64,000 bases of DNA from Nematocida ausubeli (taxonomy: Eukaryota). The DNA lies in contig NW_026515634.1 in the NCBI RefSeq assembly GCF_000738915.1, positions 847,156-911,155 on the forward strand. The letters run 5' to 3'. Under the pieces are notes generated by a model. That model was not told the origin of the DNA. It saw nothing but the letters and a program-made list of their open reading frames with translations, and ran no database searches. Below, one piece after another: positions 33,651 through 53,108 of the stretch (position 1 is its first letter; each line of letters opens with the position of its first letter). Both the position numbers and the translations under genes were made by a program.

Positions 33651-34378
33651 CATTGCATACTGCAGGAATTTGGGTTATATCGGGTTTATTCTGTTCTATT
33701 AATATATATTTCACTCCCTAGTCTATTTCCCATCTGTACTAGACTAGTACTCGGGTTATCTCTAATGTAATAGGAAGGTACTGAACTAAATAACCAAAGT
33801 ATTCAATTCTGTATACTTCCTTCAGTCCTATTAGCAGAATTGCATAGTATAACCCGATATAACCCGAAATATTCCAGACAAGAGATAATTAGTCTAGAAT
33901 AGACAGTAGATATACAGTAGATAGTTATCAAGGGTATATTTTTGTCATATACTTGAATATCTTTGTCTGTTTTTCAGGTTATTTTTGTTGACATTTTCTC
34001 TCTTTTTCTAATTTCACAGCCACTTATATAACCCGATATAACCCGAATGACTAAAATACACTTTTATTTAGACTAATCCCTTGGATAGAATTATTCTGCT
34101 AGAATATAGACATAAATTAAAGGATATTTAGAATACTTCTAGTACTGAATGGGTGGGTCTTTTTATTAATTAAATGGTAAATTACGTTTATGGCTTATTT
34201 TGTGGATTAAAACGCATTTATATGACAGAAGTATTACTTGGATTAGACTATCAAGAAATATTTCGGATACTACAATACTTATTTAGCTTCATTACATTCT
34301 TAGTCCAGTCATATACTACATTCATTACGTCCTTTTTCTCTTTGTGCAAGGACTGTACTTCGTACCTCACGGTTGACC

Positions 34379-34895
34379 AAGACTTATTCCACATTATGCA
34401 AGACTTATGGCACTTTGTGCAGAACTTAATCCTCACTTAATAAAATATGACAGAACTTATTACTCACTTAATAAAACATGACAGAACTTATTACTCACTT
34501 AATAAAACATGACAGAACTTATTACTCACTTAATAAAACATGACAGAACTTAATCCACTTTGTTAAGACTTAATCCACTCTATCCCAAAACTAGCAAGAT
34601 AATAGTGCAAGACTTATAGCACTCTAAAATATGTATTACAACTTTGTGCAAGACTTTTTCTGTGTGCCATAAGTTTTGTATAAAGTGGAAAAAGTCTTGT
34701 TTATATAAATATAAAGTGGATTAAATTCTGTCATTTATTCTGATATAATGTAAAAAGTCTTGTACATTCTTTTACAAAGTGCCATAGTCTTGTCTCCACG
34801 TAAAAAGTCCTGTCACTTCGCTATAAGTCTTGTCAAAGTGGATTAAGTCCTGCACTATTATCCATTACTTAGTACACCATGTGTTATAAGTCTTG
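34379..34895. repeat. 31-bp tandem repeat (3 full copies from 34447) within an orientation-switching CAAGACTTA/TAAGTCTTG array
   Basis: ATGACAGAACTTATTACTCACTTAATAAAAC at 34447, 34478 and 34509; 34548-34572 is the 23/25 reverse complement of 34824-34848. Confidence 0.9.
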
Positions 34896-36146
34896 GACTA
34901 TTTCGTCAACTCTTTTCTTTATCTCATTAATAACGGTGCTTATTGTTTTAATCTCTTTTTTGCTCAAATATTTGTAGCCTATCCAGTGAAAAGTGAACTC
35001 TTTTGAAATCCCGTTAAGTTTTCCCTTAATTAAATTGCAGCCAAGAATTGTTAAAAGATTTTCTTCTACTTCCTTTTCTGGCAACGATAAAGCACCTGAT
35101 ATTTCATTAAGATTAACAATTCTGTTTTGGCAGTTAAAGAAATACTTTAACAATTTTATGACGATTATTTTCTTTTTGACAATTTCAGTTATTTCTGCAC
35201 CAAAGTCTTCAGAAAGTTTGACTGCCAAATTTGCTAAGTCATTTTCTATTGCAACTGCCATTGAAAGAGATTTTGACTCTTTTCCATTTAAGGAAATTTC
35301 ATTGAAGTTCTTTTCTGTTACCTTTTCGGGTAGTTCAATTTGCAGATTCTCAAACAGCCCGTTAAAAGAGTAAATCTCATTAGCATAACAACCAGATATA
35401 ACTGCCATTTCAACTATTTTCCCAATTGGGAATATTTCCTTTTCTGGATAATTATTGCTCTTAACAATTTTAATGTACTCAATTAGGAAATTGTATCCTA
35501 ACGTACTTTTAAAATTCAACAAGCCTAGCCCAAAATACAATTCACTAATTACACTGTTACTATATATGGTAATGTTCTTGCATTCATAAAGAATAATTTT
35601 TGATAAATAAAAAACTTCCGTGTGGTTGTTAATTAAGAAATTATTTGCAAGTTCAATTAGAATTCTGACAAGACTTTCGCATCTTTGTGTAATAAGTAAT
35701 GCACTTTTAACAACTTTCTCATAATTAAAATTGCCATTTGCAGTAATATCCGTAATATTACTATTACTGTATGAGGAAACGTCCTTATTAGGAGTACTAT
35801 TACTTACAGATTCAGTAATTTCCTTATTGGGTGACTCTTCACCAGTTATTTCCATATTTTCCCCACAATTCACTAAGTTTTCCTTATTAAGTAATATAAC
35901 TAATGTATTAATTAACACATTATTTTTATTACCATATACGGTAGTGTCCGTTATTTTCCTTGATAATTCTATGCTTATTTTTGCCAATATTTTATTATTA
36001 ACATTGTTTTTGTTTGTTAAAATTAACAAATTATAACCTGACACGAGTTCTTCTACTGATACTTTGTCTATATTGCCCAGAATATTTTGTGCGAGCTGGT
36101 GGAAGAGGCCTTGCTCTGCAAGAAGAGAGAAGTTTTGCATGGGCAT
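34884..36146 (-). CDS. RPN9: 26S proteasome lid subunit Rpn9 (PCI domain), divergent and Asn/Ile-rich
   Basis: C-terminal EVE..L...L..NLIKGKLNG..K..TF.WI..KYL...EI matches the Rpn9/PSMD13 PCI tail. Confidence 0.75.
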   Translation of the reverse strand: MPMQNFSLLAEQGLFHQLAQNILGNIDKVSVEELVSGYNLLILTNKNNVNNKILAKISIELSRKITDTTVYGNKNNVLINTLVILLNKENLVNCGENMEITGEESPNKEITESVSNSTPNKDVSSYSNSNITDITANGNFNYEKVVKSALLITQRCESLVRILIELANNFLINNHTEVFYLSKIILYECKNITIYSNSVISELYFGLGLLNFKSTLGYNFLIEYIKIVKSNNYPEKEIFPIGKIVEMAVISGCYANEIYSFNGLFENLQIELPEKVTEKNFNEISLNGKESKSLSMAVAIENDLANLAVKLSEDFGAEITEIVKKKIIVIKLLKYFFNCQNRIVNLNEISGALSLPEKEVEENLLTILGCNLIKGKLNGISKEFTFHWIGYKYLSKKEIKTISTVINEIKKRVDEIVQDL

Positions 36147-36449
36147 TAAAAAAAAAGAAAATATATACTAAACATTAATTAATACACATAGTGTAATATA
36201 TAATGCAATTTAGACAGAACTTATGGTACTATTGTAATAAGTAGTGAATTTGTGTTGTATTTGGTCACATATTACATTACTTATAGTCAGTGCGTAATAA
36301 GTAGTGAATTTGTGTTGTAATTAGTCGCATTTGACAGGACTTAATACACTAGTGCCATAAGTAATGCACATTCCAGACCCTATTTTATTTATATTATCAG
36401 AAATAACCTGTATCTATATAAAATATAAATTAAAATCAAGTGAACACCT

Positions 36450-36690
36450 TATTAATAGACTAATTATAGGGGAAATATACAGGAGTAGATTAATTATAGG
36501 GGGAATACACAATAGTAGACTAATTACAACGTACTACTACTAACTACAACAGAAGAGCTTAAACAATACACTAATTACAACAGAATACACTAATAATATA
36601 CTAATAATAACAGACATATTAGATTAGTCTATAATACAACAATATACACTAATTACAACATAATACTAATAATAGTCTATAAAACATACA
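36450..36690 (+). repeat. AGTAGACTAATTACAAC-family satellite array (forward orientation)
   Basis: Many degenerate ACTAATTACAAC/ACTAATAATA units. Confidence 0.85.
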
Positions 36691-36797
36691 ACACAAGGGT
36701 CCCCCCTTACAGCCCACTAATCTTCCCTTACAAAACCCGAAATAATTTAACCAACAACCTTATTAAATCTCCTTAAACTCCTTTATTTCTGCCGTGA

Positions 36798-37412
36798 TTA
36801 TTTTGCTGCAGGTCTCCCCCACTTCTTCATGTTCTCTGCGTACTTCTCTGAGAATTCTTCATCAACCTCTGTGACTAATTCCTGCAGGCCAGGCACCATT
36901 TCATTCAGTGCTATGCAGGCTGCTGACTTCCTGCCTACGAGTGAGCCTAGTTTATTCTTGCTGTCGTATATGGCGTAACTTACACCCATCTTCTTGCAGA
37001 GTGATGGCAGGAATAGGACTACGACTAATGGGTCTACATCATTAGCAATTAGTACTAATTTTGCCTTCTTCTGTTCAATTGACTTGACTATCTGTCTTAT
37101 TCCAAATATAATTGATACTTTTTTGTCTTTTCCTTGTTCTACTCTCTCAGCCTTCTCTTCTGGGTTCTCTGGTCTATATCTCTTAAAGACTTCTTCTATT
37201 TTGTCTTTTAAGTCATCAGATATTTTCTGTTTGAATTGGTGTATGGCAGGTGGGCATTTTAGTGCACTTTCTAATGCTGTCTTTTTCTTGGCTATTAGTT
37301 TATCTTGTGCATCTCTTTCTTTTTTTGCCATTTCTGCTGTGTGCTTCTGGCCACTTCCTCTTTTATTCTTTGGGGCCTTAACTTTATGCTCTGTTGGTTG
37401 GATTATTTGCAT
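36798..37412 (-). CDS. RPL7A: 60S ribosomal protein L7a (eL8)
   Basis: LKCPPAIHQF, YRPE..EEK..R, KKAKLVLIANDVDP..V.FLP.LCKKMGV.Y, LG.LV.RK, KWG. Confidence 0.97.
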   Translation of the reverse strand: MQIIQPTEHKVKAPKNKRGSGQKHTAEMAKKERDAQDKLIAKKKTALESALKCPPAIHQFKQKISDDLKDKIEEVFKRYRPENPEEKAERVEQGKDKKVSIIFGIRQIVKSIEQKKAKLVLIANDVDPLVVVLFLPSLCKKMGVSYAIYDSKNKLGSLVGRKSAACIALNEMVPGLQELVTEVDEEFSEKYAENMKKWGRPAAK

Positions 37413-37559
37413 GCATGGGGTACATTAAAAAAAATTTAAGTAGGAAAATATACGGAAATTAGTAGGGAAATTTAGGGTATACAAGGGGGGACCCTTGGGT
37501 ATATAGAATAATAGTGGGTGTAAGGGGGGAGTATTGGAGATGTTTGGATATTTTGGAAA

Positions 37560-37920
37560 TTAGTGATATTCTGTTGCATTATAGGCTAATATTGGTATAC
37601 TGTTGTAATTAGCGTATATTAGTATATTTCTGTTGTAATTAGTCTACTACTGTATATAATTAGTATACTAGTGTGTATTAGTGTATTCCTGTTGTAATTA
37701 GTCTACTACTGCATATACTAGTATGTATTAGTGTATATTAGTGATATTCTGTTATAATTAGTATACTACTGTATATATTAGTGTGTATTAGTCTACTACT
37801 GCATATATTAGTGTATATTGGTCTATCCCTGTTGTAATTAGTATACTACTGTATATTCCCACTATAATTAGTCTACTACTGTATATTCCCTGTATACTCC
37901 CACTACAATTAGTCTACTAT
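37560..37920 (-). repeat. Same satellite family, reverse orientation
   Basis: Repeated GTTGTAATTAGTCTACTACTG units. Confidence 0.88.
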
Positions 37921-40137
37921 TCTATCCATGCAATATTTTTTTATTTTTTCATAAGAGACAAATGGATACTTTTCTTCTATAATATTAGATATATCTTTAA
38001 TAATAGATATATATAATTCAAGGTTATTAGTAAGGGGGTCTCTGGTGGTGATATTTTTAGTGAAATTATTATGACTAGCAGTGCAACTATTACTGTGATC
38101 ATGAGTAGTGAAGGTATTAGTATACTTACTAACACACTTATTATTAGTCACATTTTCAACACACTTATTATTAGTCACATTATTAACAGGGAAGTTATTA
38201 TTAGTCACATTTTCAACACACTTATTAGTAAACTTAGTATTACTACATATACTATGACTAATATTACTACAATTACTTGCTCCAGATACATTATGACTAA
38301 TATTACTACATATGCTATGACTAATACTACTACATATATTATGACTAATATTACTACAAGATATATCCTTATATAACCCAAGGTCTAATAGTCTTAATAA
38401 TTCCCTGTGTACTTTACTTAATATGTGGGCAGGTGATTTTCTTATGAGATATTTAAGTGTAACTGATTTTATTCTTTTTGTGAGTACTTTTGAAAGGGTT
38501 TTTGTTTTTGTTTTTATTTTTATTCTTTTTTGGAAAGTGTCTATTTTTTTTATTATTTTATTATTTATTTTATTAATTATTTTGTTAACAGTTTTTTCTG
38601 TTATTTTTAATGAGAATATTAGGAAGAGAGTATCCTGCCATATATTACTTGTTATATTGTGCTTATATAATAATATTATGCAGGATGCACTCTCTGGGAA
38701 TAATTTTGAGAAGATTCTTTTTATGTGGATTCTGTCTCGCATTTCTTTAACTGTCAGGTTCTTTGTTTTCATTTTTGATTTTCTTTCTTTTTTTATGGCA
38801 GTTATAATTTTATTTGATAATTTCTCCAGTATCTCCAATGGGAATATTTCTTTTTTTTTATTTTTGAATATATTTATATTATATATCTGATTTATTGCTT
38901 TTATGGCAAGTTCGATTCCCTGCACTCTTTTTTTTATCTTTTTCTCCATGTGGTTTAAATGGTCATCTGCCATTATATCGTTGTATCCTTTGAATTCTTC
39001 ATGGAATATGCTTCTTACCCTGGGTGCTGACCCTTTCCCAAAGAATTCACTGCTTTTTCCACGTGGTATCCCATTTTTATACGTATTTTGCAGTAATTTC
39101 ATGCAACCAGGCAGTAATAGGCGTATTCTACGCAGTATATCCTTTGTATTTAGTGTATTATTAGTGTATTCTGTTGGATTTAGTCTATCTGTTGTATTTA
39201 GTGTATTCTCATTAATACTGTAGAATTTAGTCGTATTTATATCTGTATTTATATCATTGTAAGGGGGTACCATTGTATATTCTTGTTTCATGTCTAATGT
39301 ATATTCTTGTGTATAGCATAATCTGTCTATTTCATTGTATATTTCACTGTAATTAGTCATATTATTAGTATTCTCGTTGTAATTAGTAATATTAGTGTTA
39401 TATTCAGTGTAATTAGTATAGTTAGTATCATATCTGTTACAATTAGTCAGGTTATTAATATATTCACTGTAATTAGTCTTATTCTCACTATATTCACTGT
39501 AATTAGTCTTATCTCTGTTATTATTAGTATCCCTGTTATAATTAGTGTTATCCCTGTTATAATTAGTCATATTCCCACTATTCCTAATATAATTAGTCAC
39601 ATTCCCACTATCTCTGTTACAATTAGTCATATTATTAGTATCCCTGTTACAATTAGTCTTATCCATATATTCTTTATACTCTGTATATTCCTTACTAATT
39701 GTATATTCTAATATATCCTTATATTCCTGTGATATTATTATATTATATAATATATCATATTTATCTTCTTTATATAATATCTTATTATATATATTATATA
39801 ATATATACAGTATATTATTATATATATTACATATATATATATTATATAATAGTTCATATATACTGTGTATATATAATATATCCTTAATTATCTTTCTTAT
39901 TATATATATATGTGATATATCTAATTGTGTTAGTAATAGTAATAGTATTAGTATATTAACTGACTCTGTTGTATTTTTATCTAATATATTAATAATATTA
40001 TAAATGTGTTCATTTGGAATATATTTATAATATATTTTACTGAAGGGTTTATTATTTATACTATCTGGTGTGAGTATTGTAGTGTCTGTTGTAATTAGTA
40101 TCTTATTAAGGATCATATGGATATATTTATCAGGCAT
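37909..40137 (-). CDS. Hypothetical 742-aa Asn/Ile/Tyr-rich protein with satellite-derived repeats
   Basis: Long stop-free frame in extremely AT-rich DNA; complex core GIPRGKSSEFFGKGSAPRVRSIF; TN(C/Y)N repeats. Confidence 0.75.
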   Translation of the reverse strand: MPDKYIHMILNKILITTDTTILTPDSINNKPFSKIYYKYIPNEHIYNIINILDKNTTESVNILILLLLLTQLDISHIYIIRKIIKDILYIHSIYELLYNIYICNIYNNILYILYNIYNKILYKEDKYDILYNIIISQEYKDILEYTISKEYTEYKEYMDKTNCNRDTNNMTNCNRDSGNVTNYIRNSGNMTNYNRDNTNYNRDTNNNRDKTNYSEYSENKTNYSEYINNLTNCNRYDTNYTNYTEYNTNITNYNENTNNMTNYSEIYNEIDRLCYTQEYTLDMKQEYTMVPPYNDINTDINTTKFYSINENTLNTTDRLNPTEYTNNTLNTKDILRRIRLLLPGCMKLLQNTYKNGIPRGKSSEFFGKGSAPRVRSIFHEEFKGYNDIMADDHLNHMEKKIKKRVQGIELAIKAINQIYNINIFKNKKKEIFPLEILEKLSNKIITAIKKERKSKMKTKNLTVKEMRDRIHIKRIFSKLFPESASCIILLYKHNITSNIWQDTLFLIFSLKITEKTVNKIINKINNKIIKKIDTFQKRIKIKTKTKTLSKVLTKRIKSVTLKYLIRKSPAHILSKVHRELLRLLDLGLYKDISCSNISHNICSSISHSICSNISHNVSGASNCSNISHSICSNTKFTNKCVENVTNNNFPVNNVTNNKCVENVTNNKCVSKYTNTFTTHDHSNSCTASHNNFTKNITTRDPLTNNLELYISIIKDISNIIEEKYPFVSYEKIKKYCMDRIVD

Positions 40138-40591
40138 ATATTATAATATATTCTGGTATATATAGTTTATGGGTCCTTATTATATTAATAATAGACAGGA
40201 TATACAGGGATAGACTAATTATAGTGGGAAGGGTGAGTTAGTTATAAATACAACGTAGATAGACTAATTATAACAAATTACAACGAAAAGGACCAATTAC
40301 AAGAGGAAATATAAGTTAGCCACAAATACAGTAGGAGATAGACTAATTATAACAGGAATATACAGAGATAGAATAATATATACTAATAATACATTAATTA
40401 GTCTACAATACAACACAATATCACTAATAATACACTAAATACAACAGTATATTAATAATATTTTATCAATAAAATAAAAATAAAACCCTTCACTTATCTC
40501 CCATATAATATATAATATATAATAATTTAAACTGTACACTTTATATTTTTATCTATATATTCTCTTTTTATCTTTAAATATATAAATAAAT

Positions 40592-41269
40592 ATGAAAATA
40601 TTCCATACAGACAGAATATTCTTTATAATTAGTACATTCCTGCTGTTCCTTAATGAGACCGTATATACACTGACTATTTCCCTGATTATTTCATGCTACA
40701 TATTCATGCACACCCTAAGTAATAAGGATGCAGTCACAGTGGCCCTAATTACTACTAATATATTTATGCATAAATATATACAGGAATCCAGTCATATACA
40801 CCTAATGACATGGTGCTTTATATTAGCAAGAATAATTAAGCCTAATAATTGCTGTATTAAATATAATACATATATATCATATATTAGTCTATTTATATCT
40901 GGTGTATGGTCTATATATACATTTATATCTGGATTTGGACTAGAAAGAAGTATAATCAAGGGATGTACATTATTCTGCAGTATGTGCCCATGTCCATTTA
41001 TCATAGGAAGACCACTAATTAGTAGATATATATACACAGGCAGACTAACAGAGACAGAAGGACGCAGTATACTTAGACTACTAGATATATGGGGTATAAT
41101 ATATAACAGTATTATGATTATAATAAATATATTTGGGGAATGGATGGGATTCGAACTTACCCCAGGGACATCCAGTTTTATAATGGTGCACTCCACAGGG
41201 GTCACGTATTATATAATGTGGGCAAAGATGCGTAACAGGGATATACAGAAAGAAAGGGGAAAGAAATAG
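40592..41269 (+). CDS. Membrane-only derivative of a P1B (Cu-type, Ccc2/ATP7/CopA-like) ATPase lacking A, P and N domains
   Basis: Ordered motifs NKDAV, ESS..LMTWCFILAR, CPCPF..G.P, degenerate YTGRLTE, WGIIYN, L.P...IMVHST; mostly hydrophobic. Confidence 0.65.
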   Translation: MKIFHTDRIFFIISTFLLFLNETVYTLTISLIISCYIFMHTLSNKDAVTVALITTNIFMHKYIQESSHIHLMTWCFILARIIKPNNCCIKYNTYISYISLFISGVWSIYTFISGFGLERSIIKGCTLFCSMCPCPFIIGRPLISRYIYTGRLTETEGRSILRLLDIWGIIYNSIMIIINIFGEWMGFELTPGTSSFIMVHSTGVTYYIMWAKMRNRDIQKERGKK

Positions 41270-41616
41270 GGAGTAGACTAAATATTGCGGGGGTAGATAA
41301 TAGTAGACTAAATATCACTAAATATAACAGAATAATAACAGACTAAATATAACAGAATAATAATATACTAAATACAATAGAGAGTATAATATTAGTATAT
41401 ATTACAACAGAATATACAATAATTAAAGCAGAATATACACTAAATACAACAGAATATTCTAAATACAACATATCCTTAATAAATACAACAGAATATCCTA
41501 ATAATACAATAAATACACCAGAGAGTATAATATATGTATAACCAATAAATATACCCTATATTTAACTGTATCTAGTTAGACACCCGAAAATATGTTTATT
41601 GAGGGACCCTGGTATA

Positions 41617-41689
41617 ACCCGGTTAGCTCAGTCGGTAGAGCATTGGACTTTTAATCCAAGGGTCGCGGGTTCGAGTCCCGTATCGGGTG
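41617..41689 (+). tRNA. trnK-UUU: tRNA-Lys(UUU)
   Basis: Cloverleaf ACCCGGT/ATCGGGT, GCTC/GAGC, TTGGA-CTTTTAA-TCCAA, GCGGG-TTCGAGT-CCCGT; T5 terminator at 41691. Confidence 0.97.
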
Positions 41690-42094
41690 CTTTTTACCAT
41701 ATTACATACTCTATGATATATTTTTACAGTATCTCATAACTAATTCTTCCCTTATAATACTCCTGTTGTATCTGTGGATTATTTCCAATAAGAAGTCTCT
41801 TTGTCTTTCATGAAAATAAATTATTAAAGAGAAATATTAGGGAGATATATTAGAAAACTAAAGATAAATTCATCTAAAATTACTACTATAGAGCCATTCA
41901 CAGCAGAGGCATTAAAGGGAAAAAGTAACAAGACAATTTAAGAAACAAAAATATCAAGATACACTAAGATATAACCAGACACAATAAGATACAACATAAA
42001 TACAATACACTAAAACACACCATAATATTATCTATATATCCCTCTATATTCCTATACTACCTCACTTCTATTTCTATGACAAATTAGTCACATA

Positions 42095-42470
42095 ATATTA
42101 TAGTGTGTTATAGTGTATTATGGTGTATTATGGTGTATTATAGTGTAGTAGTAATTTCAAATTATTTTCTATCTTTAGTCTCTCTCTATACTACTGTACT
42201 ACTATACTACTATACTACTATACTACTATAGTATTTTTTAAATTATTTTTTGTCTCCAGTGTATACTATAATAGTAGTATTTTTTGTTTCTAGTCTCTAT
42301 ACTATTAGTACTAGTACTGTAGTATTTTTTAAAATATCTTCTTTCTTTAGTCTCTCTGTACTATACTAATAGTAGTACTGTAGTAATTTTAAAATATTTT
42401 TATCTCCTGTCTCTAGTCTCTCTAGTCTCTATATACTACAGTACAATAGTACAGTACAACAGAATATATA
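42095..42470. repeat. Microsatellite/minisatellite mosaic
   Basis: TRGTGTATTA 10-mers, ACTATACT 8-mers and repeated TAGTA.TTTTAAA.TATTTT.TCT blocks. Confidence 0.8.
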
Positions 42471-42542
42471 ATAATATACAGAATAATCAATCTGATTATT
42501 GGGTTATATTTAGGTATATAATACGGAATATTTTATGTATTT

Positions 42543-43403
42543 ATGTTTTATCCAAGTGTTTTCGTATGTAAAGATAGCCTGCTGTATAGAATGTATGTAC
42601 ATTCTTGCTTGAGACGAGTTAATACTGCACTTCCTGTTGACTTACTGGGTGCATGCCTGTCTGCTGTTGATGGGGATAATTTATCCTTGCGTTTGCAGTC
42701 TCGCTTGATGATCTCTATTGTGACAAGTCTTCTGGTGCATTACAGGCAGGCACTTTCTTCTTTAGTCCGGGTTATCTCTAAGGACACGTCTACTGAAAGG
42801 GAAGTTCATAATAGAATATACAGCAAGCAAGAAATAACATACAATTACAACATGGATGTACTTTGCAGTGTACTTAATTATCAAGCGAATAAGACTGTAG
42901 TGCAAGAAGAAATAGAGTGTGCCAGGGGGAGTGCAGTATTATCTGAAGGAATGGGGTCCTTTCAGGTGCAGATGCTCTCTGAGATATATTCTGGGCAGAT
43001 AGCAGAGGAAACTGTAAGAAGAATTGATGCGCCTGTGAAAAAAGTAAAAATAGACAGAAGGATAGATGTGCCTGGGGAGATGATTTTAGGAAGAAGTGTG
43101 CCTGTGGTAAGGTGGTACCAAGGGATGGTAGATGCAATTATGAAAAGTATCCCGGAAGAAGATCAGGAATATATTGCAGATATATCTTCAATTGAAGCAC
43201 TAAGAAGGTACTCTTCTGATACGTATATGGATGATGCAGTGCACATGGACAGAAGCATATCAGTTCATGGAAGAATAAGCAGCATAAACATCCCAACAGA
43301 AAACCAAAAAATAATTGACTTTATAAATCTGCTGCATGAAGTAACAGAAGGAAATATAACTGCAATACAAGCAGTGCCATATGGGAGGATAATAAGGATT
43401 TGA
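42543..43403 (+). CDS. RAD21/REC8: Cohesin kleisin Rad21/Rec8 family (short)
   Basis: N-terminal LSLRLQSRLMISIV; C-terminal winged helix FINLL...TEG.I.AIQ.VPYG.I. Confidence 0.8.
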   Translation: MFYPSVFVCKDSLLYRMYVHSCLRRVNTALPVDLLGACLSAVDGDNLSLRLQSRLMISIVTSLLVHYRQALSSLVRVISKDTSTEREVHNRIYSKQEITYNYNMDVLCSVLNYQANKTVVQEEIECARGSAVLSEGMGSFQVQMLSEIYSGQIAEETVRRIDAPVKKVKIDRRIDVPGEMILGRSVPVVRWYQGMVDAIMKSIPEEDQEYIADISSIEALRRYSSDTYMDDAVHMDRSISVHGRISSINIPTENQKIIDFINLLHEVTEGNITAIQAVPYGRIIRI

Positions 43404-43409
43404 TTTGGG

Positions 43410-43690
43410 CAGAATTACAGTTATATTCTTGAGTGTATTTACAGTTAGATTATTGAGTGTAATTGCGGTTAGATTCTTGAATGTAATTACAGTTAGATTT
43501 AGGGTATAAATTTACAGTTAGATTTAGGGTATAAATTTACAGTTAAATTTAAGGTATAAAATTACAGCCATATTTACAGTTATATTCTGGGTATAAATTT
43601 ACAGTTAGATTTAGGGTATAAATTTACAGCCATATTTACAGTTATATTCTGGATGTAATTTCGGGTTATATTCTGGGTATATTCTGAGTA
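43410..43690. repeat. About 25-bp minisatellite
   Basis: AATTTACAGTTAGATTTAGGGTATA and variants, about 10 units. Confidence 0.88.
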
Positions 43691-44350
43691 TTATAGAAGG
43701 CGCCTGTAGTACTCTTGTATAGATGCCTTACTAGTGAATAAATAGTCATCAGTAATAGATGGATTTATGACTTCATTATTCTGTGATATATAGTTTCTAA
43801 CAGTATTTTCTTGTCAGTCTCTTATCACAGGCATTTTCTTGTCGTTGATTTTATTATCCCGAAATATTCCGAATATAAGCAGCATAGGAATGCCTTGTGA
43901 GAGAAAATAAATTATTTATTGCACACCAACAGTAGACTAATTACAACAGAAATATACGTATATACATAACAGTAGACTAATTACAACAGAAATACACAAT
44001 AATATTACTAATAATAGACACTATATACATACACTATATGCACTGCAAGAAAATATTATATAATCAAGCAGATACGCCCTTGCATACACTGAAATATATC
44101 CCAAAATATCTGAAATACTCACAAATCTAAATATGTTACTTACATGTAGTTCCTTTCATACAGGCTCTTTACACTTCTTCCTAGTAAGGGATCTTCTAGT
44201 AAATCTGAGACTGTGTAGTATTTTATATTATATTCTGAGAAGGCTTCATCTTTTGTCATTCTCTCTAGCTTTGCAAACAATGTCTCTTTGTCCATAAAAA
44301 ATAAGAAGAAGAATTCTTTATTGAAATTTCATGCCTTCTTGCAGGCGACT

Positions 44351-50264: not shown

Positions 50265-53108
50265 ATGCTACCATCGATAAAAATAGTAGGTTTAGTGTCG
50301 CTTGTACTTGGTGCGTCGCTTATAGCAGGTGTGTATTTGCATAATGCAAATACTTCTAAAAAAAAGGCTGAAGCCCCAAGGATAGCTACCATTAGAAATT
50401 ACCGCAATAATGCATATAAGAACAAGAGTACAGAAGAATTTATAAGCCTAAATAGGCCAGATAGTGCAGTGTATATGCCAAATATGGTCAAATGTGAAGA
50501 CAGTTATTCTAAAATGTATCCAAATTCTAGCGATTCAGACGATAGAAGGAATAATACGGACATTAACCAAAAGAAGAACAATGTATGTTATGGTGCGAAT
50601 GAAATATGCATAGAGAATGTGCATCTATCTAAATATGCAACTAATACAAGAATTCAGAATCCACAGTCAAAGGAACCCAACTATAATTCTAAAGATAGAG
50701 AAGTACAGCCACAGCCCAATCTTAGTATGTCCGAAATTATAGAAAAAGCCCGGGCTATTGCACAAGAACTACGCCAAAATCAAGAACAATCCAATTCTAG
50801 TACAACTAGTACACCTAGTACAACTAGTATACCTAGTGAATCCAGTGCATCAAATGCATCTAGTACAACTAGCACACCTAGTATAACATCAGATCTACCG
50901 CCTATATCTACTAAAGCTGAAAATACTACTAAAACTACAGGTGTATCCATACTCCAGCAAGAAGTACAACCGAATGTCGGTACACCAAATAATCCTCCTA
51001 TAGAAGAAGAAGAAGAAAGTAGTTTGACCACTAAGATAATAAAATTGGGTTCGGATCTAAGGGCGAACGGGCTAATACTAGATCCAAGTGAGAATAATGA
51101 CGATTTAAAAGAAGAAAGTGTTGAAGACCCCCCACAGTTAAATGTGACTAACCCCATCCCAACAGATGAAAGAAATTCTTTTGTTGCCCAACCAGAAATA
51201 CTTTATATCCGAGAAAAGGGAGAGCCTCCACATACTAATGTGAATTCTTCTGATTCCCAACCAGAAATATTTTCTAACCCAGAAGAGAGACAGCCCCCAC
51301 CTACTGATGTGAATCCTTCTGATTCCCAACCAGGTACAGTTTTAACCCCAGAAAAGAAACAGCCTCCAGAGACTGAAGAGAATTCTTCTGGTGGCGAATC
51401 AGAAATACTTTCTAACTCAGAAGAGAGACAGCTTCCAGAGACTAATGAGGAGAATTCTTCTGGTGGCGAATCAGAAATACTTTCTAACTCAGAAGAGAGA
51501 CAGCCCCCAGAGACTAATGAGGAGAATAGTGATTCTACTAGCGTAAAAGCCAATGCAAAAAAGGCAAATATTTCAGTGTCAGACATTCTAACAATCCAAA
51601 AAGTGTTTACAGATAAAAGCGGGGCTAAATGGAACCATTTACTTCATGCAGTTGATTCGCCGAACAAAGATAGCTTGAATATATCTATAAACAAGTTTAA
51701 TAAGTCAATGCAGGATCCAGTTATGCATATGCTGAGATATAATCAGTCATACATAGAAATAGTGAAAGAAGGCGATGCATATCCAAAAACTATCGATATG
51801 AAGAATTTGACGAATACACTAGGCGAATGCATCAAAAAGATAGAAAACCAAAATCATAATTCTGATGTACTCAGAAATATGAAGTCGATTGTATTCCATA
51901 CTATACTCCTTAATTCACTCTTAGAAACCTCTAGCAAATCTATTTTAAAAGAGGGAGATATAATTTTCAACTTAAGAAAAGAGCTTGATAATGAAATAGA
52001 GAATACGGATAAACAACACAAACAAAACAAAAATATCCGGCAACCATCCAATTCTCAAGAACTAAAAAAAGAAAAAATTAAAGCAGTTTTGAATAAAGCT
52101 CAGGATCAACTGCAGCCGTGGAAGGAAGAATCTAAAACGCATGCAGAAGAAATTGAAAAGAGTGTTAGCGATTTTATGGAAGCACATAAAGATCTAGGTA
52201 ATATAGATGATTTCAACTTATCTGAAATAGCTAATACGCACCAAGACAACCACCCACCAGCTGCAGTAACCCTGCATAATAAGACTTCTCCTAAAGAGTT
52301 TTTTTTATGCAATATAAAAAATCTTTTAGTTCCTAAAGATAAACAATCAGAAAACAGGAGAAGAGAAGTTAAAACAACTATTACTTTTGATGAAATGAGT
52401 ACTAGAAGCAAGGAAAAAACCTCAGTTATATATTACTTATTGAAAGACGCTGATGAGAAAAGACGTAAACTTTCAAAGAACATTGGCTTTATTTTCTTTG
52501 AAGAATGTAGCGGGTTTATCTCAAGTTGCAACGCTTCCAGCCACGGAGGGTCTACTTTGAATCTCAGAACAAACAGATCTCTATCAGCTTCTAAACGCCA
52601 CTCTGCCTCTGTTCCTGCACTGAACTCCATCTCTAAGACTTTGCCCGGTGGCGAGCTATATATACTTTCCCCGAATAAAATACTAACATTCAGTGCAAGT
52701 GTGCTCGCCAATATAGAGTATCTTCTAAGCAAGATTGAAAAGAATACAGAAGGAAAAGAGACTTGGTGCGATTCGCATACAGAGCTCATTGCATTGGTTA
52801 GATTTACAATGTGCATCTTTGCGAATGCTTCTCTTGAGCAGTGCAATCTTTTGGTGAACAATAGAGTGAACAGCAATATGTTTTCTATTGTATACAAACT
52901 CCTCTTCTACAAAAATACAGTAAGCTCTGATATAGTAGCTAATTATGAAAAAACAATCAATAAGCAGAAACATAGCATTGAGAAAAATTCTTACTTTGAG
53001 CACAATGGATTGAATAATAGAAATATCAACTTATGGGGTGCATCAGCTTTAGACTTAGAAAATGTGGACTACATTAAAAACATTTTAACGCGCAATAATA
53101 GAAAGTAA
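50265..53108 (+). CDS. Lineage-specific 947-aa protein with N-terminal signal/TM anchor and acidic Ser/Pro repeats (candidate host-exposed protein)
   Basis: IVGLVSLVLGASLIAGVYL; STTSTPS repeats; 23-24-aa NSS..E.EI.SN.EERQPP.T repeats at about 51170-51530. Confidence 0.85.
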   Translation: MLPSIKIVGLVSLVLGASLIAGVYLHNANTSKKKAEAPRIATIRNYRNNAYKNKSTEEFISLNRPDSAVYMPNMVKCEDSYSKMYPNSSDSDDRRNNTDINQKKNNVCYGANEICIENVHLSKYATNTRIQNPQSKEPNYNSKDREVQPQPNLSMSEIIEKARAIAQELRQNQEQSNSSTTSTPSTTSIPSESSASNASSTTSTPSITSDLPPISTKAENTTKTTGVSILQQEVQPNVGTPNNPPIEEEEESSLTTKIIKLGSDLRANGLILDPSENNDDLKEESVEDPPQLNVTNPIPTDERNSFVAQPEILYIREKGEPPHTNVNSSDSQPEIFSNPEERQPPPTDVNPSDSQPGTVLTPEKKQPPETEENSSGGESEILSNSEERQLPETNEENSSGGESEILSNSEERQPPETNEENSDSTSVKANAKKANISVSDILTIQKVFTDKSGAKWNHLLHAVDSPNKDSLNISINKFNKSMQDPVMHMLRYNQSYIEIVKEGDAYPKTIDMKNLTNTLGECIKKIENQNHNSDVLRNMKSIVFHTILLNSLLETSSKSILKEGDIIFNLRKELDNEIENTDKQHKQNKNIRQPSNSQELKKEKIKAVLNKAQDQLQPWKEESKTHAEEIEKSVSDFMEAHKDLGNIDDFNLSEIANTHQDNHPPAAVTLHNKTSPKEFFLCNIKNLLVPKDKQSENRRREVKTTITFDEMSTRSKEKTSVIYYLLKDADEKRRKLSKNIGFIFFEECSGFISSCNASSHGGSTLNLRTNRSLSASKRHSASVPALNSISKTLPGGELYILSPNKILTFSASVLANIEYLLSKIEKNTEGKETWCDSHTELIALVRFTMCIFANASLEQCNLLVNNRVNSNMFSIVYKLLFYKNTVSSDIVANYEKTINKQKHSIEKNSYFEHNGLNNRNINLWGASALDLENVDYIKNILTRNNRK

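What the first reader, a model, noticed from the sequence alone, without database searches (positions are those of the whole stretch)
40592..41269. A Cu-type P1B-ATPase reduced to its membrane scaffold, with no ATPase domains
Seen: an intact 225-aa hydrophobic ORF carrying, in order, NKDAV, ESS..LMTWCFILAR, CPC (nt 40985-40993) followed by PF..G.P, YTGRLTE, WGIIYN and L.P...MVHST. Established: Cu+ P1B-1 pumps (CopA/Ccc2/ATP7) have NMD.L, ET...LITFILLG, CPC.L..ATP, the phosphorylation motif DKTGTLT, W...YN and MxxSS in that order. They also have an actuator domain between M2 and M3 and several hundred residues of P/N domain between CPC and YN. Here the actuator position is a ~10-aa loop (PNNCCIKY) and CPC-to-YN spans only 36 aa. 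DKTGTLT survives as YTGRLT without the catalytic Asp. Inference: both cytoplasmic domains were deleted in frame while the metal ligands (CPC, YN, M..S) were kept. That suggests a passive copper channel/uniporter, a membrane metal sensor or chaperone, or half of a split pump, in a parasite that depends on host ATP.
Basis: partly seen in the sequence, partly recalled or inferred. Interest (0 to 1): 0.9.

Follow-up and report, generated by a model that had tools for sequence, protein, structure and literature searches.

The report
Copper pump stripped of its motor
A microsporidian parasite carries an intact 225-residue membrane protein whose second half matches copper-pumping ATPases and keeps their copper-binding residues but lacks the ATP-driven motor domains, so it likely handles copper without ATP, a form of P-type pump not found in the papers searched.

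Summary
The ORF (40592-41269, 225 aa) is real and lies in a Nematocida ausubeli protein cluster. Three distant homologues (27-44% identical, unnamed contigs) share it.

Its second half derives from helices M3-M6 of a P1B-1 Cu(I) ATPase. A family profile hits only P1B pumps in the PDB (10 of 10). One homologue matches HMA4 at E 1e-6 and aligns as one block to a CopA profile lacking the P/N domains. That homologue's AlphaFold model, built without CopA rows, ranks ATP7B first (Z 10.9).

CPC, YN and the M6 Met are invariant. CPC-to-YN is 36 aa in 4 of 4, against 298 in CopA. No A, P or N domain and no catalytic Asp is present.

Weaker points: the N-terminal MA-M2 motifs have no statistical support. 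YTGRLT is not conserved, and its DKTGTLT origin ties with another origin. Both folds are low-confidence, and the window protein's own model matched nothing. Expression and a separate motor gene were not tested.

Best reading: an ATP-independent Cu(I) carrier (0.45). Rivals: static copper binder or sensor, non-copper role, split pump. It is not a P-type ATPase by definition, and no precedent appeared in ten literature searches.

The parts
40592..41269 (+). Gene for the 225-aa motor-less P1B-derived membrane protein (P0001)
   Evidence: cluster of 7 with N. ausubeli names; homologues
40592..40837 (+). Four predicted helices (res 2-82), probably MA, MB, M1, M2 of the ancestral pump
   Evidence: helices in the low-confidence model; no significant profile match; loose overlay of the homologue's model on ATP7B 687-1385. 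Inferred.
40721..40729 (+). N44-K45-D46, the likely counterpart of the M1 entry motif, with Lys in place of the entry Met
   Evidence: K/K/R in 3 of 3 full-length members; Met in 78 of 79 CopA rows; the alignment is by eye and not significant
40838..40864 (+). Short loop in place of the actuator domain, with a family-specific Cys pair C87-C88 (nt 40850-40855)
   Evidence: P84, C87, C88 identical in 3 of 3 full-length members; no A-domain match
40985..41014 (+). M4 metal motif C132-P133-C134 ... R140-P141 (CopA CPC...TP)
   Evidence: invariant in 4 of 4; aligned to HMA4, AfCopA, LpCopA
41015..41089 (+). 25-residue linker replacing the P and N domains; invariant E156 and D165; no catalytic Asp; origin unresolved
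   Evidence: same length in 4 of 4; alternative profiles compared
41102..41107 (+). M5 Y171-N172 motif
   Evidence: invariant in 4 of 4 and in 79 of 79 CopA rows
41183..41197 (+). M6 M198-V-H200-S201-T202 (CopA MxxSS); H200 is a new invariant residue

Best explanation
This is an intact 225-residue membrane protein whose second half derives from a P1B-1 copper pump, keeps the CPC, YN and Met copper residues and lacks the actuator, phosphorylation and nucleotide domains, and it likely works as an ATP-independent Cu(I) carrier. Shown: the homology of M3-M6, the loss of the motor domains, and conservation of the metal site across members only 27-44% identical. Inferred: the first four helices are MA-M2; Cu(I) binds at C132/C134 plus M198, with Y171/N172 and the M6 hydroxyls shaping the site as in HMA4; the cytosolic C87-C88 pair stands in for the lost metal-binding domains and entry Met as a capture site; R140, E156 and D165 staple the new M4-M5 linker. 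Copper would then move only downhill between thiol sinks, most likely in the ancestral direction, from the parasite cytosol to a lumen or the outside. Proton coupling through H200 is possible but has no evidence.
For: Family profile against the PDB: 10 of 10 hits are P1B ATPases, 8 of them Cu pumps, with two matched stretches (M4, M5-M6) in the three alignments printed. P0010 against the PDB: the 8 hits with E<0.01, of 13 listed, are all Cu pumps, best HMA4 E 1e-6; TIGR01511 Cu-ATPase E 6.3e-8. P0010 aligns as one domain of 51 bits across the junction of a P/N-deleted CopA profile, 0 of 300 shuffles; profile-profile probability 93.6%. P0010 model, from a family-only alignment: top three VIA rows are ATP7B (Z 10.9, rmsd 4.0, 137 residues, 23% identity). 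Nine of 16 invariant columns are positions at least 95% conserved in CopA. PMC10973460 (section 17 read) names the CPC Cys pair and the MXXXS Met as the likely high-affinity ligands and calls the CPC region highly dynamic.
Against: No transport or binding data exist. Without A/P/N domains nothing drives alternating access, so the site may be static. The entry Met seems lost and the MXXXS Ser is Thr or Met. No metal-binding domain is present. A copper need is not evident: microsporidian SOD is described as Mn or Fe/Mn type (passages), and loss of cytochrome oxidase is recalled knowledge. No named orthologue from another Nematocida species appeared. Models have pLDDT 51-52, and a designed helical bundle reached Z 9.3 in the same VIA list.
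Confidence: 0.45

Rival explanations
1. A static membrane copper site: the protein binds Cu(I) as a buffer, sensor or hand-over point to a partner membrane protein, with no transport across the bilayer.
For: The motor that opens and closes the pathway is gone. The entry Met appears replaced by a basic residue. The linker has a fixed 25 residues with invariant charged residues that could lock M4-M5.
Against: A buried intramembrane site plus about eight helices is costly for simple buffering. No signalling domain or tail is shared among members.
Confidence: 0.27
2. The scaffold has been repurposed for another metal or for a non-metal role, such as a Zn or other soft-metal carrier, a redox dithiol, or a lipid-modified structural subunit.
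For: New invariants H200, R140, E156, D165 and the C87-C88 pair. No known cuproenzyme in the microsporidian papers read ('copper' occurs 0 times in each main text).
Against: The Cu(I)-type set CPC, YN, Met is kept intact in 4 of 4, and the best family match is the Cu-specific model.
Confidence: 0.15
3. Half of a split pump: a separate soluble A/P/N protein docks on this membrane part and restores ATP-driven export.
For: A family annotated 'soluble P-type ATPase' exists in methanogens (one table row, PMC4153887). The genome could not be searched.
Against: No A or P/N match in the 64-kb window. M4 is joined directly to M5, removing the covalent links by which the P domain moves the helices (knowledge). 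The phosphorylation motif is not conserved.
Confidence: 0.09
4. A decaying remnant of a lost copper pump with no function.
For: Patchy recovery among named proteomes; low-GC, repetitive surroundings; expression not shown.
Against: The same architecture, 36-residue spacing and metal residues persist across four sequences 27-44% identical. The frame is full-length in 5 of 7 cluster members; the other 2 are partial records on short contigs.
Confidence: 0.04

Closest known systems
P1B-1 Cu(I)-ATPases (CopA, HMA4, ATP7B; TIGR01511)
   Same: M4 CPC...P, M5 W...YN, M6 P......M..S in order; M3-M6 helix arrangement overlays on ATP7B; about eight predicted helices.
   Different: No metal-binding domain, no actuator (TGE), no P/N domains, no DKTGT Asp; 225 versus more than 700 aa; CPC-YN 36 versus 298 aa; entry Met apparently lost; new H200 and Cys pair.
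TMEM94/ERMA (degenerate P-type-like protein)
   Same: P-type fold with disputed catalysis: no ATPase activity and no TGES in PMC12134183 (first part read); PMC13322241 (listing only) argues the opposite.
   Different: TMEM94 keeps A-, P- and N-like domains and ten helices; here the domains are physically deleted and the scaffold is P1B type with its metal ligands kept.
Ctr1-type passive copper permeases (recalled)
   Same: Possible functional analogue: ATP-independent, sulfur-ligand Cu(I) passage.
   Different: Unrelated fold (three helices, trimer; recalled); no Ctr match in Pfam.
CFTR, an ABC pump turned channel (recalled)
   Same: Precedent for a primary pump scaffold giving downhill flux.
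   Different: CFTR keeps its nucleotide-binding domains and is gated by ATP.

Membership tests
P-type ATPase superfamily | DKTGT motif with phosphorylated Asp | tested here: not met
   No DKTG in any of 4 members; if YTGRLT is the relic, the Asp position holds I/T/I/L
P-type ATPase superfamily | P and N domains between M4 and M5 | tested here: not met
   25-residue linker in 4 of 4; P/N profile gives no match above shuffles
P-type ATPase superfamily | Actuator domain with TGE between M2 and M3 | tested here: not met
   A-domain profile gives no match above shuffles; about 10-residue loop
P1B-1 Cu(I) ATPases | CPC...P in M4 | tested here: met
   C132, P133, C134, P141 invariant in 4 of 4
P1B-1 Cu(I) ATPases | YN in M5 | tested here: met
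   Y171, N172 invariant; segment beats shuffles in 4 of 4 (0, 0, 1, 0 of 300)
P1B-1 Cu(I) ATPases | MXXXS in M6 | tested here: inconclusive
   Met and the +3 Ser are invariant; the +4 Ser is Thr (3 of 4) or Met (1 of 4)
P1B-1 Cu(I) ATPases | MA/MB helices, MB' platform and M1 entry Met | tested here: inconclusive
   Four N-terminal helices predicted; no significant profile match; loose overlay; Met appears as Lys/Arg
P1B-1 Cu(I) ATPases | N-terminal heavy-metal-binding domain | tested here: not met
   No HMA Pfam match, no N-terminal CxxC
P1B-1 Cu(I) ATPases | P1B transmembrane fold | tested here: inconclusive
   Homologue model: ATP7B top three, Z 10.9/10.2/9.9, but pLDDT 51 and under the tool's caution level for helical bundles; the window protein's model gave no P1B row
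P1B-1 Cu(I) ATPases | Cu(I) binding and translocation | not testable with these tools
   needs biochemistry

The most novel reading that the evidence does not exclude
A new family of passive or proton-coupled copper transporters made by deleting all three motor domains from a P-type pump: the P1B membrane domain alone would be enough for Cu(I) translocation, letting an ATP-importing parasite keep copper transport while dropping its energy cost.
Probability: 0.45. Interest if true: 0.9.

Novelty: new variant of a known kind. Interest (0 to 1): 0.78.

Why it matters
P-type pumps are defined by tight coupling of a phosphorylating motor to their membrane helices. A natural, conserved protein that has dropped the motor but kept the Cu(I) site is a ready-made test of what the membrane domain can do alone: bind, occlude or leak. 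It also bears on which residues form the high-affinity site, since evolution kept the Cys pair, YN and Met but apparently not the entry Met or the terminal Ser. For microsporidia it shows genome reduction acting inside a protein, and points to a copper problem or copper use not described in the papers read.

Tried and rejected
Window protein alone: no PDB sequence hit; weak Pfam and NCBIfam hits only (E 0.41, 0.14); no usable ESM Atlas hit. Its AlphaFold model (pLDDT 52) gave no Foldseek match at E<=0.001 and no P1B row among the 50 VIA rows shown; this is inconclusive given model quality. Foldseek on the homologue's model also had no match at E<=0.001; ATP7B came at rank 27 (E 1.5, probability 0.90, rmsd 2.5 over 60 columns).

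No eukaryotic P1B sequences were in hand for a better profile.

Linker origin: four hand-built profiles summed to 100.2 (DKTGT region), 96.5 (last P-domain helix), 78.1 (post-M4) and 72.8 bits (no linker). An ungapped scan was not significant (195-215 of 500 shuffles reached it). Unresolved.

Relatives with genomic context: none in metagenome contigs, prokaryote genomes or viral contigs. A search for longer forms of P0010 returned one ordinary CopA at E 0.11, weak evidence only.

Expression: no RNA holder listed; no reads were laid, so expression is open. No whole genome is held. Earlier scan findings: none. Literature: searches listed no paper whose title or abstract start describes a P1B protein without cytoplasmic domains; most subscription journals and all supplements were not seen.

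Rejected by inspection: an intron-split full-length pump (both junctions lie inside one open frame in all members; no A/P/N exons in the window).

Full report
Observation. The window holds an open frame at 40592-41269 (+) that encodes 225 mostly hydrophobic residues. The protein belongs to a 90% cluster of 7 sequences whose named members are hypothetical proteins of Nematocida ausubeli. Five are full length and two are partial records on short contigs. The neighbours are unrelated eukaryotic housekeeping genes and a tRNA-Lys, so context says nothing about function.

Relatives. A full HMMER pass over 1.84 billion representatives found 4 proteins at E<=0.001: the cluster itself and P0008 (290 aa), P0009 (114 aa, second half only) and P0010 (252 aa), all unnamed Logan sequences. 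Pairwise identities are 27-44%. Their organisms and surroundings are unknown. No named protein from another Nematocida species appeared; both searches have blind spots, so the distribution is open. Scans of metagenome, prokaryote and viral contigs gave no relative.

Homology to copper pumps. The window protein alone gives only hints (Pfam E1-E2_ATPase E 0.41; TIGR01525 E 0.14; no PDB hit). The family makes it clear. Its profile retrieves 10 PDB sequences at E<=10, all P1B ATPases (8 Cu, 2 Zn/Cd; best HMA4, E 7.5e-4); the three alignments printed each show two stretches, at M4 and M5-M6. P0010 matches the Cu-ATPase model TIGR01511 at E 6.3e-8 and HMA4 at E 1e-6; its 8 hits under E 0.01, of 13 listed, are all Cu pumps. 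I built profiles from 79 full-length CopA proteins: 78 of 80 fetched loci had CPC and YN, plus P0011. The M5-M6 segment beat local shuffles in all four members (0, 0, 1, 0 of 300). The M3-M4 segment did so in P0010 (0 of 300) and P0008 (3 of 300), but not in P0001 (220) or P0009 (136). The A-domain and P/N profiles matched none. With the A and P/N columns removed, P0010 aligned as one domain of 51 bits straight across the M4-M5 junction (0 of 300). P0008 and P0009 also passed (0 of 300); P0001 did not (31 of 300). Profile-profile comparison gave 93.6% over residues 90-199.

Structure. Both AlphaFold models are poor (pLDDT 52 and 51). The window protein's model matched nothing. The P0010 model was built from the family alignment only. 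Foldseek gave no significant match, with ATP7B at rank 27. Re-aligning Foldseek's top 1000 chains put ATP7B in the first three rows: Z 10.9, rmsd 4.0, 137 residues, 23% identity, model 112-249 on chain 910-1383. A third row extends to 177 residues from model 34 at rmsd 5.6. A designed helical bundle reached Z 9.3 at 5% identity, so this supports the sequence result rather than proving the fold.

What was kept and lost. Of 103 columns shared by all four members, 16 are invariant. Nine are positions at least 95% conserved in CopA: C132, P133, C134, P141, Y171, N172, P191, M198, S201. PMC10973460 (passages and section 17) gives the CPC cysteines and the MXXXS Met as the likely high-affinity ligands, YN and the MXXXS Ser as shapers of that site, and an M1 Met as the entry ligand. 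Here the cysteines, YN and Met are kept. The MXXXS Ser is Thr or Met. The entry Met appears as Lys, Lys, Arg if the by-eye alignment holds. New invariants are R140, E156, D165 and H200, and a Cys pair (C87-C88) in the loop that replaces the actuator, in 3 of 3 full-length members. CPC-to-YN is 36 residues in 4 of 4, against 298 in CopA.

The N-terminal motifs are not statistically tied to M1/M2. YTGRLT varies among members. A DKTGTLT origin fits P0001 best, while the last P-domain helix fits P0010 best (LMRS...LLTA against HMA4). The summed scores, 100.2 versus 96.5 bits on profiles I designed after seeing the data, do not decide, and an unbiased scan was not significant. Either way no catalytic Asp remains.

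Mechanism. The protein cannot be a self-contained pump. Selective retention of the Cu(I) ligand set over deep divergence argues that it still binds soft metal in the membrane (inference). I commit to an ATP-independent Cu(I) carrier working downhill, probably outward from the parasite cytosol, with the Cys pair as a capture site (0.45). A static binder or sensor is the main rival (0.27), because nothing now drives alternating access and the entry Met seems gone. A changed substrate or role gets 0.15: the microsporidian papers read mention Mn or Fe/Mn SOD and never copper (passages of PMC4654818, PMC5381614 and 10.1101/110809). A split pump gets 0.09: there is no A or P/N match in the window, but the genome could not be searched. 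A dead remnant gets 0.04. Expression is untested (one search listed no RNA holder).

Comparison and novelty. It fails the defining tests for P-type ATPases and should be filed as a derivative of the P1B-1 membrane domain, not as a pump. TMEM94 is the nearest degenerate P-type protein found, but it keeps its cytoplasmic domains (PMC12134183, first part read). Ten literature searches listed no description of this architecture; coverage is open-access only and no supplements were read. Earlier scan findings held nothing similar. Verdict: real, conserved and apparently undescribed; a new variant of a known kind whose function is directly testable; interest 0.78.

Noticed in passing
P0010, ESM Atlas: The top three feature hits (0.91-0.93) are unnamed bacterial clusters of 130-208 aa without a common Pfam family; lower rows carry E1-E2_ATPase or HMA. 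They may be CopA fragments or bacterial mini-forms; no ids were given to test.
   Followed up: no
window 37909-40137 (-): 742-aa low-GC ORF with Asn/Thr-rich repeats, divergent from the gene studied; no Pfam match.
   Followed up: partly
window 34001-44000: GC falls to 25-33% in this stretch against mostly 34-47% elsewhere in the window, with repetitive AT-rich spacers around the gene.
   Followed up: no
window 41617-41690 (+): tRNA-Lys(TTT) about 350 nt downstream of the gene.
   Followed up: yes
window 50265-53108 (+): 947-aa ORF with a hydrophobic N-terminus and acidic Pro/Ser repeats, no Pfam match; it looks like a secreted or host-exposed protein.
   Followed up: partly
P0002, P0004, P0006, P0007: Other cluster members have 4-8 extra N-terminal residues from short repeats of the start region (MKINMK, MKIKMKIKMK).
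   Followed up: no
P0009: This homologue starts at the end of M3; whether it is a truncated gene call, a broken copy or a natural half-size form could not be checked.
   Followed up: no
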